From Nanobdellota archaeon (GTDB taxonomy: Archaea > Nanobdellota > Nanobdellia > Woesearchaeales > WJIZ01): DNA of 51,483 nucleotides. The stretch is taken from contig JAGLMD010000020.1 of assembly GCA_023140175.1 (NCBI GenBank), forward strand, positions 1 to 51,483. Direction: 5' to 3'. Position 1 is the stretch's first letter. Every line of letters begins with the position of its first letter. Of the stretch, positions 34,001 through 36,930 are shown piece after piece. Made by a program: the position numbers and the translations under genes. The notes under the pieces are model-generated. The model was not told the origin of the DNA, ran no database searches, and saw nothing but the letters and a program-made list of their open reading frames with translations.

Positions 34001-34640
34001 TATGCCAATGGAAAAATATGTTTATTATGTTAACAAAGAAATACCTTTAGACAAAATTAAAGAAATAAAATCAGTTTTAATAGCAAATGATATTGACGAA
34101 AAAACCATGATAACGGGTTTCGCTGTTTTTGGAGGCCTGCCGGGAAATCTAGTTCAGACAAGCAATATGAGGTTGATCATAGAGATTCTGATAATCATCA
34201 TATTGATTATTATCTACGTTGCATTTACAAGTGATTTAAGGAAATTAAAATATTTTATAACTGACAGAACAACATTAAAGAACATAAAAGAAGTAAATCA
34301 AACTGTTGATAAAGCACTAGTTGATTTACAGAACAACCAATATGAGAAAGCAAAAGCGCTTTATAAGAACACCAATACAACATTCAAGCAGCTGCCAGAA
34401 GATATGAGAAAAGACGCGTATAAAAAGATAACACATCTATCTGGTAAATTAAATGTTTTCCACATCAATAAGTTGATTGATAAGGCTTTCTTCAGCCTGG
34501 AAAACCACCAGGTCGCAGCAGCATCTTCAGCATACAAACATGTTAACAAAATCTATAAAGTTATAGCTCCAAGGTATAAATCCAATGTTTTGGAGAGATG
34601 TAATGAATTATATAAAAAATTAAATGAGCAGAAAAAATAA
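31071..34640 (+). CDS. Large bitopic envelope protein: signal peptide, beta-sandwich and PKD domains outside, TM helix, ~130-aa helical cytoplasmic tail
   Basis: 1,189 aa. Signal peptide FIFITLLAFILLPQIGKS. Cys-rich motif CTDGVQNGDETSIDCGGSCEEC. PKD-like stretch FNWRFDDGSTSTQTNPKHTYNQNKTYTVNLTITWNG. CarboxypepD_reg-like stretch IIIEVENEDGRDIENAEVEFDD...GTYDFTVSKENYIEY. TM helix MRLIIEILIIIILIIIYVAF lies near residue ~1030 and is followed by a helical tail. Confidence 0.85.
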   Translation: MNKKTFIFITLLAFILLPQIGKSDLSKTISIELEYKSSTNWDLDNNGIESNKAAIDFTVEDTKFSWDADESKLCTRWEIYSIENEQSGLICYGNKKCCNFIDLEPEMPNWNNILYIPYQKYGTSRNNKVSATVIYVDYSLDPNNLYSDIYYSELDYLYAVYLEENLEESIPKKWIVIKTSSENSPKINFTIISPNNKTSLIKGEDVYLNFTLNITVMASYSLNSGNYVPLGLNNSFSSKLNGSLPFDVIGNGRHNLTIYLMDNLSDIINYTYSFTVNDTLAPDIYVNVDGIELNNSIVNRENHTIVINIISDEYSSISYKLNDDEYQNTNLDENKSVSINAELQDGKNNLTININDMQGNSRLLEYGFNFELLPTCTDGVQNGDETSIDCGGSCEECIPFDVSLEKYTFDLGETVEVTILARANSAVDLKVLFNGNVIDSEYIPSYSPDFPIYITKTINNIDEEGNYEIQAAMYYMNTSENKVLSFYVNDPAPQNPLSVSIKANTTSIKEGEAIEFGAAISGNTSAASFNWRFDDGSTSTQTNPKHTYNQNKTYTVNLTITWNGWTKTDKETITVKEPFKIIIEVENEDGRDIENAEVEFDDIKKNTSSDGKASFIIAAGTYDFTVSKENYIEYSNSTKITENKTIRVKLTEYETYYGYDNKEPAITLSGPADNEKINQEKVTINYKVLDSSAVNCTLYINIDEGWWVEKAYEKNITEDSEISFVIDDLENKHYQWKIECVDKYGNSQVSETRNFNVSNTNIITTNQGISIDEAINKIGISISNLVYLERNEKEASDALKLKELLEKSIKNLERAKRDLNNIKWRKLNETKTEELRLSIIDRIENIKRSTPNTIKVIETKEFVGYPDKEDVRNISLHVLESENKKYKKREKEEYVSYNQELQNLISITTKSKAIEVGYISGETGRITLIEKEINIKESSEDLSLVESIPKAIAANTSCINALFDYAVILEDPMIRLNMPMEKYVYYVNKEIPLDKIKEIKSVLIANDIDEKTMITGFAVFGGLPGNLVQTSNMRLIIEILIIIILIIIYVAFTSDLRKLKYFITDRTTLKNIKEVNQTVDKALVDLQNNQYEKAKALYKNTNTTFKQLPEDMRKDAYKKITHLSGKLNVFHINKLIDKAFFSLENHQVAAASSAYKHVNKIYKVIAPRYKSNVLERCNELYKKLNEQKK

Positions 34641-36930
34641 AAAAATTGAGGTGATAGTCACTGTATATTTGGCCTTAGTCCTAGTTATAGCTGTTTATTC
34701 TGCCGATAATGCATTTGGCCAAATAAAAACAAGTGAGTATGAAATAGCGGTGAATAGTATTAATGAACTGCTAAAATTAGGAAATTTTAAAGAACGTGTC
34801 TTTACTCTAAAAAATAAAAAATCCGAGGCAATTGGTGTAACTTTCTTTTTAGAGGGAAATATAACAGAAACCATTAGGCTTAGCAGCGAAAGGATTAATA
34901 TAGAGCCAAAAGCTGAACAAAGAATAAACATCACTATTTTCGGAGATAAAGTGGGTGCATATAAAGGTAAATTAATCCTCAATGGAGATATTAATGAAGA
35001 AATACCTGTCAGTATCATTGTATCTGAAGAAGGCATGCCCGTAGATGCAATAATTATGGAAGTTCAGCCTCTGAAAAAAAAGTTCTATATTGGCGAACCT
35101 GTTAGAATTAAAATTGATATCCAGAACTTATTAAATGAAGAACCATATAATGTTACATTTCATTATTCTATTGGAAAGTTTATACGCAAAAGCAAAGAAT
35201 TGAACGCTTCCTTTGAGAATGTGACTGAAGATATGATTATAGATACATCTCTAACCCTGATAAAGGAGTTTGATATCCCGAAGGAAACTGCAAAGGGAGA
35301 GTATATGATTAACGTTAAAGCAGAATATCTCGGCTTAACTACTCAAAAAGGAATCAGATTTTCTATAGGTGAAAAACTGATGGACTATCTTATTTTTGGT
35401 CTTTTACCGCTAAAAAAGTTAATATTATGGTCGCTCAGCATTATCCCAATAGTTGGCCTTTTTATATACTTTAAAAAACGAAAAGAAAAGAAGAAGAGAT
35501 ACAAAAGTGATATTGAATTCTCACTATTGCCAAAGGCTGGCCCAAGGTCTGTGATAATAGGAAAAATTGCTGAAACTGAGAAGACTGCTTATTTTGACAT
35601 TGACCAGCTAACAATACATACACTTATAGCTGGCTCAACAGGGGGAGGAAAAACAGTTTCAGCCGAAGTATTAATTGAAGAAGTACTGATGAAAGATGCT
35701 GCTGTTATCATATTTGATCCGACAGCACAATGGAGCGGCTTTCTAAGAAAATGCCAAAATAAAAAGATGTTAGACCTTTATTCTCAGTTCAGCATGAAGA
35801 AAACAGAAGCTAAAGCATTTAATGGAAATGTACATCAGGTCCTAAATGCGAGACAAATAATTGATATTAAGAAATTTATGATGCCTGGAGAGATTCATGT
35901 CTTCGCCACTAACAAGCTAGATCCAAAAGATATGGATATCCTCGTCTCGAATACAATAAGGGAGATATTTCATGCTAACTTACCTGAAGCAGCCGAATTA
36001 AAACTGATGGTAATATTTGATGAGGTCCACAGGCTATTGCCAAAATTTGGAGGATCCGGCCAGGGCTTTATCCAGATAGAAAGAGGTGCAAGAGAATTCA
36101 GAAAATGGGGAGTGGGACTAATGCTGATAAGTCAGGTACTGACAGATTTTATTGGCTCCACAAAAGCAAACATCAACACAGAGATCCAGATGAGAACCCG
36201 TGATCAGGGCGATTTGGACAGAATCAAAAATAAATATGGTAGTTATATGCTTCAATCCTTGCTTAAATCCGCCACTGGAACCGGGATGATAGAGAATTCT
36301 GCTTACAATAGGGGAAATCCTTTCTTTGTAACATTCAGGCCATTATTGCATGAGCACGCAAGACTAACAGATGAAGAACTTGAAAACTATAATAAGTACA
36401 ATGAAGTAATAGAAGATTTAGAATACCAGATAGAGCAATTAGAAAAAGAAAACATAGATGTATTTGATCTTAAATTAGAGCTTAAGATGGCTCTTGACAA
36501 AGTTAAATCCGGAAGCTTCAATATGGTTGATATTTATCTTGAAGGCCTCAAGCCAAGAGTAGAAGAAGCATGGAAAAAGATGGGAAAGCAGCCTAAGAAG
36601 AGAGAGATTAAGCTAGTAGAGGATGTAGAGCTCCAAAGAGAGTTCGAAGAGGCAAAAAGGGCAAGAGAGGCTACTGGAGAAAAAGAGATAAGCAGTCCGA
36701 TAGGAGCCCAAAAAAACAAATTACCCCCATTAAAACTCAAAGCAGGAGTAACTGTAAACAGTGTTACAGAACTAATCGATTCAATTAACACAATGGAAGA
36801 GGAAGCTGCCAAAGCAGAAAAAGAAGATTTTGCAAAATGGGTGGAACAGATTAATCCAAGCGTAGCAGAAGCAGTGGCCAAAGCAGAATCAAAAGAAGAC
36901 ATAATCATAGCGCTGGAAAAAGCGCAGTAA
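34624..36930 (+). CDS. Membrane-embedded HerA/DUF87-like (FtsK-HerA superfamily) P-loop ATPase with extracellular N-terminal domain
   Basis: 768 aa.
- N-terminal hydrophobic segment: IEVIVTVYLALVLVIAVYSADNAFG.
- About 230 aa of beta-rich sequence, two CARDB-like halves.
- Second TM region: LIFGLLPLKKLILWSLSIIPIVGLFIYFKKRKEKKKR.
- Walker A: IAGSTGGGKTV.
- IIFDPTAQW.
- Walker B: MVIFDEVHRLLP.
- REFRKWGVGLMLISQ and NTEIQMRT, which together match the HerA/DUF87 motif order.
- A coiled-coil, acidic C-terminal tail.
- Overlaps the upstream gene by 17 nt. Confidence 0.8.
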   Translation: MSRKNKKIEVIVTVYLALVLVIAVYSADNAFGQIKTSEYEIAVNSINELLKLGNFKERVFTLKNKKSEAIGVTFFLEGNITETIRLSSERINIEPKAEQRINITIFGDKVGAYKGKLILNGDINEEIPVSIIVSEEGMPVDAIIMEVQPLKKKFYIGEPVRIKIDIQNLLNEEPYNVTFHYSIGKFIRKSKELNASFENVTEDMIIDTSLTLIKEFDIPKETAKGEYMINVKAEYLGLTTQKGIRFSIGEKLMDYLIFGLLPLKKLILWSLSIIPIVGLFIYFKKRKEKKKRYKSDIEFSLLPKAGPRSVIIGKIAETEKTAYFDIDQLTIHTLIAGSTGGGKTVSAEVLIEEVLMKDAAVIIFDPTAQWSGFLRKCQNKKMLDLYSQFSMKKTEAKAFNGNVHQVLNARQIIDIKKFMMPGEIHVFATNKLDPKDMDILVSNTIREIFHANLPEAAELKLMVIFDEVHRLLPKFGGSGQGFIQIERGAREFRKWGVGLMLISQVLTDFIGSTKANINTEIQMRTRDQGDLDRIKNKYGSYMLQSLLKSATGTGMIENSAYNRGNPFFVTFRPLLHEHARLTDEELENYNKYNEVIEDLEYQIEQLEKENIDVFDLKLELKMALDKVKSGSFNMVDIYLEGLKPRVEEAWKKMGKQPKKREIKLVEDVELQREFEEAKRAREATGEKEISSPIGAQKNKLPPLKLKAGVTVNSVTELIDSINTMEEEAAKAEKEDFAKWVEQINPSVAEAVAKAESKEDIIIALEKAQ

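What the first reader, a model, noticed from the sequence alone, without database searches (positions are those of the whole stretch)
34624..36930. Unusual domain architecture: signal anchor + ~230-aa extracellular beta-rich domain + TM + HerA-like ATPase + coiled-coil/acidic tail
**Seen in the sequence**
- Residues ~8-30 are hydrophobic.
- Two similar beta-rich halves follow (…NITIFGDKVGAYKGKLILNGDINEEIPVSIIV… and …YNVTFHYSIGK…GEYMINVKAEYLGL…).
- Then comes a hydrophobic stretch, LIFGLLPLKKLILWSLSIIPIVGLFIYF, with a KKRKEKKKRYK stop-transfer.
- Only after that does the P-loop domain begin.
- The C-terminal ~170 aa are coiled coil and end in an acidic helix, EDFAKWVEQINPSVAEAVAKAESKEDIIIALEKAQ.

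**Established knowledge and inference**
HerA/DUF87 ATPases as I know them are soluble or carry only short N-terminal anchors. An ectodomain of this size fused to the motor is not a described arrangement to my knowledge. It suggests direct coupling of an outside receptor or adhesion domain to a cytoplasmic motor.
Basis: partly seen in the sequence, partly recalled or inferred. Interest (0 to 1): 0.7.

Follow-up and report, generated by a model that had tools for sequence, protein, structure and literature searches.

The report
Minimal SPEARE-like membrane HerA ATPase
This gene encodes a small version of the "SPEARE" surface proteins of tiny symbiotic (DPANN) archaea, with two Ig-like domains outside the cell, one membrane helix and a HerA-type ATP motor inside; the design is real and widely conserved, but it was first described in 2019 and its function is still untested.

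Summary
The ORF 34624..36930 (+, 768 aa) is real and has the described layout. It has a cleavable Sec signal peptide, two Ig-like beta-sandwiches outside the cell, one TM helix with a KKRKEKKKRYK stop-transfer, and a cytoplasmic HerA-clade P-loop ATPase. These are followed by a conserved helical hairpin and a small DUF5752-like C-terminal domain.

- **Conservation.** The fusion is not an artefact. The same layout occurs in more than 100 homologues and at least 574 genome loci, all DPANN archaea.
- **Prior description.** The arrangement is already described. The protein is 48% identical (E 4e-97) to the cytoplasmic part of the Ca. Nanohaloarchaeum antarcticus SPEARE protein (Hamm 2019). A 47%-identical homologue, AYK26_03765, is listed in that paper's SPEARE table.
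- **Size range.** The same module ends proteins from 717 aa up to 6253 aa. This gene is a minimal form.
- **New here.**
  - The ATPase is assigned to the HerA clade.
  - The gene sits in a conserved, translationally coupled cassette: RHH, RHH, PKD surface protein, then the ATPase.
  - A conserved 11-bp-phased WTACA repeat array lies upstream of the cassette.
  - The C-terminal domain co-occurs with the cassette.
- **Function.** Function is unknown experimentally. My best guess is a hexameric anchor and motor for a host-contact apparatus.

The parts
30601..30644 (+). Array of 11-bp-phased direct repeats with core WTACA. ATACA occurs at 30601, 30612, 30623 and 30634, with a further copy at 30640. 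The array lies between a TATA-like box (~30560-30575) and the first RHH start codon. It is the presumed operator for the cassette's RHH proteins.
   Evidence: Searches give the sequence and repeats. In one search the pattern WTACA-N6-WTACA-N6-WTACA occurred only here in the 51 kb window, with 0 matches in 100 shuffles. In one search, 54 upstream regions (53 related loci plus this window) showed lag-11 autocorrelation z=13.3 and lag-22 z=8.3, with the same xTACA core.
30645..30797 (+). RHH50, a 50-aa CopG/NikR-type ribbon-helix-helix protein and the first gene of the cassette.
   Evidence: Pfam RHH_1 at 4e-8. The nearest PDB sequences are the NikR N-terminal domain and ParD antitoxin. An orthologue lies upstream of the ATPase gene in 55 of 81 loci.
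30790..31074 (+). RHH94, a second RHH-like protein with a charged C-terminal helix. It overlaps RHH50 by 8 nt.
   Evidence: Weak Pfam RHH_8 hit and a weak NikR/CopG match in PDB. Present in 51 of 81 loci in the same position.
31071..34640 (+). Partner surface protein of 1189 aa. It has a Sec signal, a ~1000-aa ectodomain (PKD, Big_13 and CarboxypepD_reg-like domains, 30 N-glycosylation sequons), one TM (~1027-1059) and a ~130-aa helical cytoplasmic tail. Its stop overlaps the ATPase gene start by 17 nt.
   Evidence: Orthologues lie directly upstream of the ATPase gene in 66 of 81 loci.
34624..36930 (+). The finding itself: a 768-aa SPEARE-like type I membrane ATPase.
34624..34716 (+). Signal peptide, aa 1-31, with probable cleavage after AFG.
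   Evidence: AxA|Q-type motifs in homologues.
34720..35025 (+). Ig-like beta-sandwich 1, aa 33-134, extracellular.
   Evidence: AlphaFold pLDDT >90. Foldseek finds only generic tandem Ig/FnIII/ASH folds. Sub-threshold Pfam ASH and Cep192_D4 hits.
35050..35370 (+). Ig-like beta-sandwich 2, aa 143-249, extracellular and membrane-proximal.
   Evidence: Residues Y227 and Y235 are invariant even in nanohaloarchaeal and giant homologues.
35419..35505 (+). TM helix (aa 266-283) plus the basic stop-transfer KKRKEKKKRYK (aa 284-294). The K/R-R-Y motif is nearly invariant.
35521..36348 (+). HerA-clade P-loop ATPase core, aa 300-575. Walker A GSTGGGKT is at aa 337-344 (nt 35632-35655). Walker B is D466/E467. 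The arginine finger equivalent is R493. There is no HAS-barrel.
   Evidence: Pfam DUF87 and HerA_C. Best PDB match is Sulfolobus HerA 4d2i. Invariant residues are listed. DUF87 and HerA_C match 22 of 22 family members.
36370..36693 (+). Helical region, aa 583-690. Residues 583-653 form a conserved hairpin that is part of the family module. Nanohaloarchaeal proteins end at about aa 646.
36730..36918 (+). Small C-terminal domain, aa 703-765, with a DUF5752-like motif. In this protein the motif carries a 4-residue deletion.
   Evidence: Alignment. Pfam DUF5752 hits in longer homologues. The domain co-occurs with the RHH/PKD cassette: 47 of 49 with the cassette against 4 of 13 without.
37170..38837 (-). 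A 555-aa secreted, C-terminally anchored protein on the opposite strand. It is conserved next to the cassette only in close relatives, so its membership of the system is uncertain.
   Evidence: tblastn hits in 10 of 81 loci at 44-70% identity. No Pfam family.

Best explanation
**What it is (shown, about 0.95).** The gene encodes a minimal member of the SPEARE-like protein family of DPANN archaea. The family's conserved unit comprises:
- two membrane-proximal Ig-like domains;
- one TM helix;
- a cytoplasmic HerA-clade ATPase with an intact catalytic set;
- a helical hairpin.

In other genomes this unit forms the C-terminal end of surface proteins of 1300 to more than 6000 residues. Here it stands alone, and the large ectodomain is supplied by a separately encoded, translationally coupled PKD-rich single-pass protein. 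The four-gene cassette (RHH, RHH, PKD protein, ATPase) is chromosomal. It is probably autoregulated by its two RHH proteins through an 11-bp-phased WTACA repeat array.

**How it works (inferred, about 0.4).** Like other HerA/FtsK-superfamily enzymes, the ATPase probably forms a hexameric ring. The HAS-barrel is replaced by the TM helix, so the N-terminal face of the ring sits against the inner face of the membrane. Six TM helices and a collar of twelve Ig domains would continue outward and dock the adhesive ectoprotein. ATP hydrolysis would then move a polymer (DNA or an unfolded protein) across the symbiont's membrane at the host-contact site. The ring would also serve as the oligomerising anchor of the adhesin.
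For: **Identity**
- 48% identity over 286 aa (E 4e-97) to the Ca. Nha. antarcticus SPEARE C-terminus printed in Hamm 2019 SI.
- 37% identity over 624 aa to a 4079-aa Ca. Nanosalina protein, and 36% over 642 aa to a 717-aa acidic protein. Both alignments span the Ig domains, the TM and the ATPase.
- Homologue P0108 (AYK26_03765) is listed in Hamm's SPEARE table.
- The same weak Pfam ResIII hit that gave SPEARE its 'RE' is present here.

**Module at the C-terminus of proteins of every size**
- The representative search found 392 clusters at E<=1e-30, with matches ending proteins of 717 to 6253 aa.
- In most of the giant forms recovered full length I see a signal peptide, an ectodomain rich in sequons (mostly about 2-7.5 per 100 aa), one TM 50-80 aa before Walker A, and nothing else in the membrane.

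**Active ATPase**
- K343, D466/E467, R490/R493 and Q504 are invariant or nearly invariant.
- R493 aligns with the position I number as Sso HerA R381, which I recall as the arginine finger. The alignment is; the numbering and role are from my own knowledge.

**HerA clade**
-.

**Topology**
-.

**Cassette**
- Gene overlaps of 8, 4 and 17 nt.
- Conserved in 51-66 of 81 loci, which is nearly all loci with enough upstream DNA.
- Operator array.
- RHH proteins closest to NikR and ParD.

**Chromosomal and core**
- The locus lies next to aRF1 here and in L002.
- At least 574 hits among species-representative genomes; the 80 kept are DPANN MAGs by title, apart from some with evidently default labels.
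Against: **No experimental function.** No experiment exists for any family member. The hexamer and the transported substrate are inferred from the superfamily only.

**Weak channel.**
- One TM helix per subunit (six per ring) is a poor channel.
- No polytopic pore protein (VirB6/CedA-like) and no other T4SS component is found in the cassette or its neighbours.

**No special exporter needed.** All nearby surface proteins carry ordinary Sec signals.

**RHH proteins look like regulators.** With their operator they resemble plain transcriptional regulators, so they give no real support for a DNA substrate.

**Model limits.** AlphaFold was run on the monomer only. The segment 506-551 is the most conserved part of the protein but has pLDDT below 50.
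Confidence: 0.5

Rival explanations
1. Mechanical anchor or actuator with no transported substrate. The HerA ring bundles six ectodomains (its own, or those of the PKD partner via cytoplasmic tails). It uses ATP to assemble, tension, retract or release the adhesin, transmitting force through the single TM helices.
For: - There is only one TM per subunit and no pore protein nearby.
- The most variable part of the family is the adhesive ectodomain, and the constant part is the base.
- The PKD partner has a conserved helical cytoplasmic tail. Some long forms carry C-terminal TPR repeats, which suggests cytoplasmic protein-protein contacts.
- The C-terminal domain co-occurs with the cassette.
Against: From my own knowledge, no HerA/FtsK-superfamily enzyme is known to work as a pure mechanotransducer; all characterised members thread a polymer. 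No test is possible with these tools.
Confidence: 0.22
2. A membrane-tethered DNA-processing or defence enzyme. The cytoplasmic domain unwinds or feeds incoming foreign or host DNA to a nuclease. This is the spirit of the original 'restriction endonuclease' reading of SPEARE, and of HerA-nuclease defence systems.
For: - Weak Pfam ResIII hit.
- PADLOC hits to HerA models and to mad8 at 1e-18.
- Hamm 2019 proposed degradation of imported DNA.
Against: - No nuclease domain is found in the protein or the cassette. No NurA, Sir2 or DUF4297 partner was found among the neighbours scanned.
- All PADLOC and NCBIfam HerA matches are partial and far below family cut-offs (38.8 bits against 800).
- Reva 2023 re-analysed SPEARE and found no endonuclease.
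- The cassette is a core chromosomal locus next to aRF1, not a defence island.
Confidence: 0.1
3. A housekeeping chromosome pump. This would be an FtsK/SpoIIIE analogue that clears DNA from the division plane, with the RHH proteins and the repeat array acting as a centromere-like loading site.
For: - The ATPase is very highly conserved: mean majority-residue frequency per column is 0.85-0.91 across 72 sequences.
- It has wide, core-like distribution.
- An RHH protein plus tandem direct repeats next to an NTPase gene recalls ParG/ParR-type partition loci. This comparison is from my own knowledge. The array is shown.
Against: - A glycosylated Ig ectodomain, and fusion to adhesins of up to 6000 aa, make no sense for a septal DNA pump.
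- Several paralogues occur per genome, often beside giant surface proteins.
- The FtsK Pfam score is below cut-off, and no gamma domain or 4-TM anchor is present.
- The repeat array occurs once in this window, at the promoter, as expected for an operator.
Confidence: 0.05
4. An artefact: two genes (a secreted Ig protein and a soluble HerA) joined by a frameshift or assembly error.
For: None found.
Against: The same continuous architecture appears in about 115 of 120 independent homologues from many assemblies. It also appears in 78 genome loci. The alignment is gap-free through the junction.
Confidence: 0.01

Closest known systems
SPEARE proteins of Nanohaloarchaeota (Hamm et al. 2019, PNAS, PMC6642349; re-annotated by Reva et al. 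2023, Front Microbiol, PMC10266531)
   Same: - The order of parts is the same: Sec signal, Ig-rich ectodomain, a single TM near the C-terminus, a cytoplasmic P-loop ATPase, and a helical end.
- Sequence homology is direct: 48% identity to the Nha. antarcticus C-terminus and 36-37% over about 630 aa to nanohaloarchaeal proteins.
- Hamm's SI already lists woesearchaeal-type homologues, including AYK26_03765, and short 655- and 717-aa versions.
   Different: - This protein has only two Ig domains outside. It has no laminin-G, protease or toxin-like domain.
- The large ectodomain is a separate gene (PKD protein).
- There is an extra DUF5752-like C-terminal domain that is absent from the nanohaloarchaeal proteins.
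- There is a dedicated RHH pair and a repeat operator.
- The neighbouring second VirB4-type ATPase reported next to the nanohaloarchaeal genes is not seen here.
HerA DNA-repair helicase (HerA-NurA; e.g. Sulfolobus HerA, PDB 4d2i) and HerA of anti-phage systems
   Same: - It is the best sequence match for the ATPase core.
- Walker A, Walker B and the arginine finger align.
- The pre-Walker-A strand motif (..IGKIAET....D...L..H.LI.G.TG.GKT) is typical of HerA.
   Different: - There is no HAS-barrel. Only two short strands lie between the TM and Walker A.
- The protein is membrane-anchored with an ectodomain.
- No NurA or other nuclease partner was found.
- NCBIfam HerA equivalogs score 27-39 bits against cut-offs of 800-970.
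Type IV secretion ATPases: coupling proteins VirD4/TraD/TrwB and VirB4/CedB
   Same: They are membrane-associated ring ATPases of the same superfamily. They give weak hits here: TrwB_AAD_bind at 3e-5, TraD at 1e-8, CedD at 1e-7 and IcmO at 3e-3. This is the analogy used by Reva 2023 for SPEARE.
   Different: - T4CPs have two N-terminal TMs and an all-alpha domain.
- VirB4 has its own N-terminal domain (PF03135), which is not detected here.
- No VirB2, VirB6 or other T4SS genes are nearby.
- HerA models match better and match all members.
FtsK/SpoIIIE, Streptomyces TraB and type VII secretion EccC/EssC (comparison from my own knowledge)
   Same: An N-terminal membrane anchor is followed by FtsK/HerA-superfamily motor domains that move DNA or protein across or along a membrane.
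   Different: These proteins have polytopic anchors (2-4 TM) without a folded glycosylated ectodomain, one to three FtsK-type domains, and DNA-recognition gamma or wHTH domains. The Pfam FtsK_SpoIIIE score here is below cut-off (19.3 against 24).

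Membership tests
SPEARE-like proteins (DPANN) | Conserved intracellular region homologous to that of the nanohaloarchaeal SPEARE proteins | tested here: met
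   - BLASTP gives 48% identity over 286 aa, E 4e-97, to the Nha. antarcticus SPEARE sequence printed in Hamm 2019 SI.
- 37% identity over 624 aa to a Ca. Nanosalina 4079-aa protein.
- Homologue AYK26_03765 is in Hamm's SI Table S3.
SPEARE-like proteins (DPANN) | N-terminal part extracytoplasmic, a single TM toward the C-terminus, and the C-terminal region cytoplasmic | tested here: met
   Signal peptide, sequon bias of 2.05 against 0.20 per 100 aa, and positive-inside bias of 5.9 against 1.6. AlphaFold TM helix at 263-290.
SPEARE-like proteins (DPANN) | Very long ectodomain with at least one laminin-G domain and multiple adhesion, protease or toxin-like domains | tested here: not met
   The ectodomain is 225 aa, made of two Ig-like domains only, with no Laminin_G or peptidase hit. 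Hamm 2019 nevertheless names 655- and 717-aa versions SPEARE, so I call this protein SPEARE-like or minimal rather than a canonical giant SPEARE.
HerA helicase (HerA-NurA repair type) | N-terminal HAS-barrel domain | tested here: not met
   The AlphaFold model shows only strands 309-315 and 321-325 between the TM and Walker A. Pfam DUF87 matches start at profile position 3 at residue 312.
HerA helicase (HerA-NurA repair type) | RecA-like core with Walker A/B and a trans arginine finger of HerA type | tested here: met
   K343, D466/E467 and R493 are invariant or nearly invariant.
HerA helicase (HerA-NurA repair type) | Equivalog-level similarity, and a NurA/Mre11/Rad50 neighbourhood | tested here: not met
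   NCBIfam HerA_Thermprot scores 38.8 bits against a cut-off of 800, and helicase_HerA 26.9 against 970. The neighbours are surface proteins and RHH proteins.
Type IV secretion coupling protein / VirB4 | T4CP two-TM N-terminus plus all-alpha domain, or the VirB4 N-terminal domain (PF03135); other T4SS genes nearby | tested here: not met
   - After signal-peptide cleavage there is a single TM.
- TrwB_AAD_bind matches only the P-loop stretch 328-369.
- PF03135 is not reported for this protein and is not among the 25 most-matched families (of 45) listed for the 22 members.
- No T4SS families are found in the neighbours.
FtsK/SpoIIIE | Pfam FtsK_SpoIIIE above the gathering score, a polytopic N-terminal anchor and a gamma (wHTH) domain | tested here: not met
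   19.3 bits against a cut-off of 24, covering residues 312-357 only. No wHTH is detected, and there is one TM.
Hexameric ring assembly (general property of the HerA/FtsK superfamily) | Forms a hexamer with a central pore | not testable with these tools
The most conserved segment, 506-551, is disordered in the monomer model. That is compatible with an interface or pore element but is not evidence for one.

The most novel reading that the evidence does not exclude
The module of two Ig domains, a TM helix and a HerA ATPase is a universal DPANN 'socket': a hexameric motor that itself forms, or gates, the conduit through which these biosynthetically crippled symbionts take up host DNA or nucleotides, or inject effectors. 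In the woesearchaeal cassette form, the RHH proteins and the DUF5752-like C-terminal domain, which co-occur, would be more than regulators. They would be DNA-handling adaptors docked on the motor, analogous to relaxosome RHH proteins on T4SS coupling proteins. This would be a new, minimal, single-TM class of trans-envelope nucleic-acid translocase.
Probability: 0.1. Interest if true: 0.85.

Novelty: new member of a known kind. Interest (0 to 1): 0.4.

Why it matters
SPEARE-type giant proteins are the most conspicuous candidate host-interaction factors of DPANN archaea, and their mechanism is unknown. They are very hard to study at 4000-9400 residues.

**A tractable minimal form.** The conserved core of the family is a compact unit: two Ig domains, a TM helix, a HerA-type ATPase and a hairpin. 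It exists on its own as a 768-aa protein, which gives a workable target for structure and biochemistry.

**A corrected annotation.** The ATPase is better described as HerA-clade without a HAS-barrel. It has been called a restriction enzyme (2019) and VirB4/TraG-like (2023).

**Concrete handles.** The conserved four-gene cassette and its 11-bp repeat operator provide candidate partners and a regulatory site. These are the PKD protein's cytoplasmic tail, two RHH proteins and a DUF5752-like domain. They can be used to test what the motor acts on.

Tried and rejected
- **Frameshift or fusion artefact.** Rejected. The architecture is continuous in about 115 of 120 homologues and in 78 genome loci.
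- **Specific function from the ectodomain fold.** Foldseek against PDB returned only generic tandem Ig/FnIII/ASH matches, with TM-scores normalised to the ectodomain model of about 0.31-0.42: Vpr fibril, RbmA, the CEP192 SPD-2 domain and hydin-like proteins. Pfam gave only sub-threshold ASH/Cep192 hits. No receptor or enzyme assignment is possible.
- **Internal duplication of the two halves.** There is no significant sequence similarity between them.
- **Conserved acidic C-terminal tail, TraD-like.** Not supported. The tail belongs to a small domain and is not conserved as acidic.
- **Defence system.** PADLOC gives only generic HerA or mad8 partial hits, with no partner genes.
- **Plasmid or mobile-element origin.** There are only remote DUF87 hits (about 21-27% identity) on haloarchaeal plasmids, and the locus is chromosomal next to aRF1.
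- **Alternative secretion route for the giant neighbours.** All of them have ordinary Sec signals.
- **Sigma-70 promoter and terminator scan.** Uninformative for an archaeon.
- **Early literature searches.** Searches on HerA/DUF87/FtsK with DPANN or Woesearchaeota found nothing. The link emerged only through 'giant proteins' and then SPEARE.
- **Other lookups.** DUF5752 has no literature in the library. Iyer 2004 could not be read.

Full report
**Observation**

The window is low-GC (about 33%) archaeal DNA with an aRF1 gene at 41076..42176. The ORF 34624..36930 (+) encodes 768 residues.

Hydropathy analysis shows two hydrophobic segments. The first is residues 10-27, after a basic MSRKNKK. The second is L266-F283, followed by KKRKEKKKRYK.

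The AlphaFold model, built with 71 homologues, has mean pLDDT 82. It shows these parts:
- two beta-sandwiches, at 33-134 and 143-249;
- a long helix at 263-290;
- a RecA-like alpha/beta domain at about 300-575;
- four helices between 583 and 690;
- a small helical domain at 703-765.

The ectodomain modelled alone reaches pLDDT 91. Walker A (GSTGGGKT) lies at 337-344.

Three details need correcting.
- In homologues the N-terminal hydrophobic stretch ends in AxA|Q-type motifs, so it is probably a cleaved Sec signal and not an anchor.
- The two halves resemble each other only in fold.
- The C-terminus is a conserved hairpin plus a small DUF5752-like domain, not a coiled coil with a conserved acidic tail.

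**Topology and reality of the fusion**

This protein has five N-glycosylation sequons in the 225-residue ectodomain and none in the 483 cytoplasmic residues. Across 115 homologues the densities are 2.05 per 100 aa outside and 0.20 inside. The 15 residues flanking the TM carry on average 5.9 K+R on the inside and 1.6 on the outside.

The order of parts is signal, ectodomain, a TM about 50-80 residues before Walker A, then the ATPase. I found it in practically every one of the 120 best homologues. I also found it in 78 loci from species-representative genomes. A frameshift or a missed stop is excluded.

**The ATPase**

The sequence evidence points to the HerA clade.
- Pfam gives DUF87 (HerA central domain, 8e-12) and HerA_C above their cut-offs. 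TrwB, AAA_10, ResIII and FtsK hits are weak and limited to the P-loop.
- NCBIfam gives only partial hits far below cut-off, for example HerA_Thermprot at 38.8 bits against 800.
- The best solved relatives are HerA proteins: 4d2i, 9c1m, 8wiv and 9x1l. This holds for the single sequence and for the family profile.
- Among 22 diverse family members, DUF87 and HerA_C match all 22. TrwB matches 15, ResIII 10 and FtsK 9.

K343, D466/E467, R490/R493 and Q504 are invariant or nearly invariant. The enzyme is therefore presumably active.

No HAS-barrel is present. The TM helix is joined to the first core strand by about 25 conserved residues.

The segment 506-551 is the most conserved part of the protein, with majority frequency 0.91. 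It is nevertheless disordered in the monomer model. That would fit an inter-subunit or pore element, but this is inference.

**The ectodomain**

Foldseek against PDB returns only generic tandem Ig/FnIII/ASH-type folds. Pfam gives sub-threshold ASH/Cep192 hits. No specific ligand or activity can be inferred. The ectodomain is less conserved than the motor (0.45-0.57 against 0.85-0.91). A few residues (P128, Y227, Y235) are invariant even in the most distant relatives.

**Family context: the decisive step**

I ran an exhaustive phmmer search of 1.84 billion representative proteins. It found 1111 relatives at E<=1e-3, and 392 at E<=1e-30.

Query residues about 35-690 align to the C-terminal end of proteins of every size. 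These are roughly 770, 1300 and 1650 aa, then 2000-3500 aa, and then 4000-6253 aa. The matched stretch covers the two Ig domains, the TM, the ATPase and the hairpin.

Most of the giant forms recovered full length have a signal peptide and an ectodomain rich in sequons (mostly about 2-7.5 per 100 aa). They have one TM just before Walker A. Several are very acidic, and the sources assign them to Nanohaloarchaeota. Examples are P0236 (4079 aa, Ca. Nanosalina sp.) and P0240 (Nanohaloarchaeota QJJ-9).

This is the architecture published for the SPEARE proteins.
- Hamm et al. 2019 (PMC6642349) describe proteins of 655 to 8553 aa that are mostly extracytoplasmic. They have a TM near the C-terminus and a conserved cytoplasmic region.
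- That paper read the cytoplasmic region as a type III restriction enzyme. It noted similar sequences in Woesearchaeota, Aenigmarchaeota, Micrarchaeota and Altiarchaeales.
- Reva et al. 2023 (PMC10266531) re-annotated the region as a VirB4/TraG-like ATPase followed by a coiled coil. They proposed a secretion 'straw'.

Three results tie this window's protein to that family.
- It is 48% identical over 286 aa (E 4e-97) to the Ca. Nha. antarcticus SPEARE C-terminus printed in the 2019 supplement.
- It is 36-37% identical over about 630 aa to the nanohaloarchaeal proteins.
- Its 47%-identical homologue P0108 (AYK26_03765, 'Euryarchaeota archaeon SM23-78') is listed in that supplement's Table S3.

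The weak ResIII hit that produced the 'RE' in SPEARE is also present here. The arrangement is thus already described, and this protein is a minimal member of the family in a Woesearchaeota-type organism.

**What the locus adds**

The gene is the last of four overlapping, co-directional genes.

| Gene | Coordinates | Description |
|---|---|---|
| RHH50 | 30645..30797 | CopG/NikR-type ribbon-helix-helix protein |
| RHH94 | 30790..31074 | Second RHH-like protein with a charged C-terminal helix |
| PKD protein | 31071..34640 | 1189-aa PKD/Big/CarboxypepD_reg single-pass surface protein with a helical cytoplasmic tail |
| ATPase | 34624..36930 | The 768-aa SPEARE-like protein |

The overlaps between successive genes are 8, 4 and 17 nt.

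- **Cassette conservation.** tblastn finds the same order in 51-66 of 81 related loci. That is nearly every locus with enough upstream DNA. It includes the ~1300-aa forms and the SM23-78 locus L047.
- **Paralogues.** Forms without the cassette also occur, often a few kb away and beside giant proteins. They are matched only to about residue 660-700 of this protein. The 1653-aa and 1676-aa DUF87 proteins called in L003 and L002 appear to be of this class.
- **C-terminal domain.** The DUF5752-like domain is present in 47 of 49 copies that have the cassette. It is present in only 4 of 13 copies that lack it. The nanohaloarchaeal proteins end before it.
- **Repeat array.** Immediately upstream of RHH50 lies an array of 11-bp-phased WTACA repeats at 30601-30644. 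It is unique in the window, with 0 matches expected. Across 54 upstream regions (53 related loci plus this window) it gives lag-11 autocorrelation z=13.3 and lag-22 z=8.3.
- **RHH relatives.** The RHH proteins are closest to NikR and ParD. The simplest reading is that the RHH proteins autoregulate the cassette.

**Mechanism**

Shown by the analyses above:
- the protein is a type I membrane protein;
- it has two Ig domains outside the cell;
- it has an intact HerA-clade ATPase inside;
- it is encoded with a large surface partner;
- it belongs to the SPEARE-like family.

The mechanism itself is inferred. By analogy with the superfamily I expect a hexameric ring pressed against the inner membrane face through its N-terminal side. 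Six TM helices and a collar of Ig domains would dock the adhesin.

I favour an ATP-driven polymer translocase at the host contact, at about 0.4. The main alternative is a mechanical anchor or actuator that transports nothing, at about 0.2.

Points against a simple channel:
- there is one TM per subunit;
- no polytopic pore or T4SS genes are nearby;
- the neighbouring surface proteins have ordinary Sec signals.

I consider the defence/nuclease and chromosome-pump readings unlikely, for the reasons given under the rival explanations.

**Novelty and verdict**

The claim of an undescribed architecture is not. The family has been known since 2019, and woesearchaeal relatives are listed in that paper. 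I rate this a new member of a known kind. It has useful additions:
- the HerA-clade assignment;
- the definition of the compact conserved module;
- the split cassette form with its RHH pair and operator;
- the link between the C-terminal domain and the cassette.

Interest is moderate (0.4). The function of the family is an open question in DPANN symbiosis, and the minimal form makes it more testable.

Noticed in passing
window 30601-30644 (and the 100 nt upstream of RHH50 orthologues in L001-L081): A conserved array of 11-bp-phased direct repeats with core WTACA lies between a TATA-like box and the first RHH gene. It is unique in the window. Across 54 upstream regions (53 related loci plus this window) the lag-11 autocorrelation is z=13.3. 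It is probably the operator of the cassette's RHH proteins.
   Followed up: yes
window 731-16531 (+): A giant 5266-aa ORF with a Sec-type N-terminus and 367 N-glycosylation sequons. It has no C-terminal TM or ATPase. It is followed by four co-directional secreted or C-terminally anchored proteins (16590-23211), including a He_PIG/Big_9 Ig-repeat protein. In other genomes, comparable giant ectodomains are fused directly to the ATPase module studied here.
   Followed up: partly
L002 1-285; L003 13620-18581; second HerA hits in L011, L014, L015, L018, L019, L027: A second paralogue class of the membrane HerA ATPase has long CarboxypepD_reg/PEGA ectodomains. Its members are matched only to about residue 660-700 of this protein. 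The called genes in L003 and L002 are 1653 and 1676 aa. It lacks the RHH/PKD cassette and mostly lacks the DUF5752-like C-terminal domain. It often sits 3-6 kb downstream of the cassette copy and next to giant (>5000 aa) surface proteins.
   Followed up: partly
window 23695-28465 (+): A tandem duplication of a gene pair. A cytoplasmic HTH protein (219 and 212 aa; weak HTH_20 and HVO_A0114 hits) is followed by a secreted ~250-aa protein (24664-25413 and 27713-28465, near-identical by eye). A 318-aa secreted protein lies in between. Relatives of the 250-aa protein occur in 9-11 of the related loci.
   Followed up: no
window 20869-22017 (+): A 382-aa secreted, C-terminally anchored protein with a run of Cys-rich repeats (..EDEFILNRSCVRLNCS.. 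repeated at least three times). No Pfam match.
   Followed up: no
window 37170-38837 (-): A 555-aa protein with a signal peptide and a C-terminal TM plus KKKKKK tail. It has no Pfam family and zero N-glycosylation sequons, unlike the other surface proteins here. It is conserved beside the cassette only in the closest relatives (10 loci, 44-70% identity).
   Followed up: partly
window 34624-36930, residues 506-551: The most conserved stretch of the whole protein (..TKANINTEIQMRTRDQGDLDRIKNKYG..) has majority-residue frequency 0.91. It is also the only long segment with pLDDT below 50 in the monomer model. It may become ordered only in the oligomer or with substrate.
   Followed up: no
locus titles (e.g. 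L007, L008, L013, L025): Many MAGs carrying this DPANN-specific cassette are labelled 'uncultured Methanosarcinales archaeon' in their record titles. The gene content (RHH, PKD protein and HerA cassette at 45-62% identity to Woesearchaeota copies) suggests that these labels are default or erroneous taxonomy.
   Followed up: no
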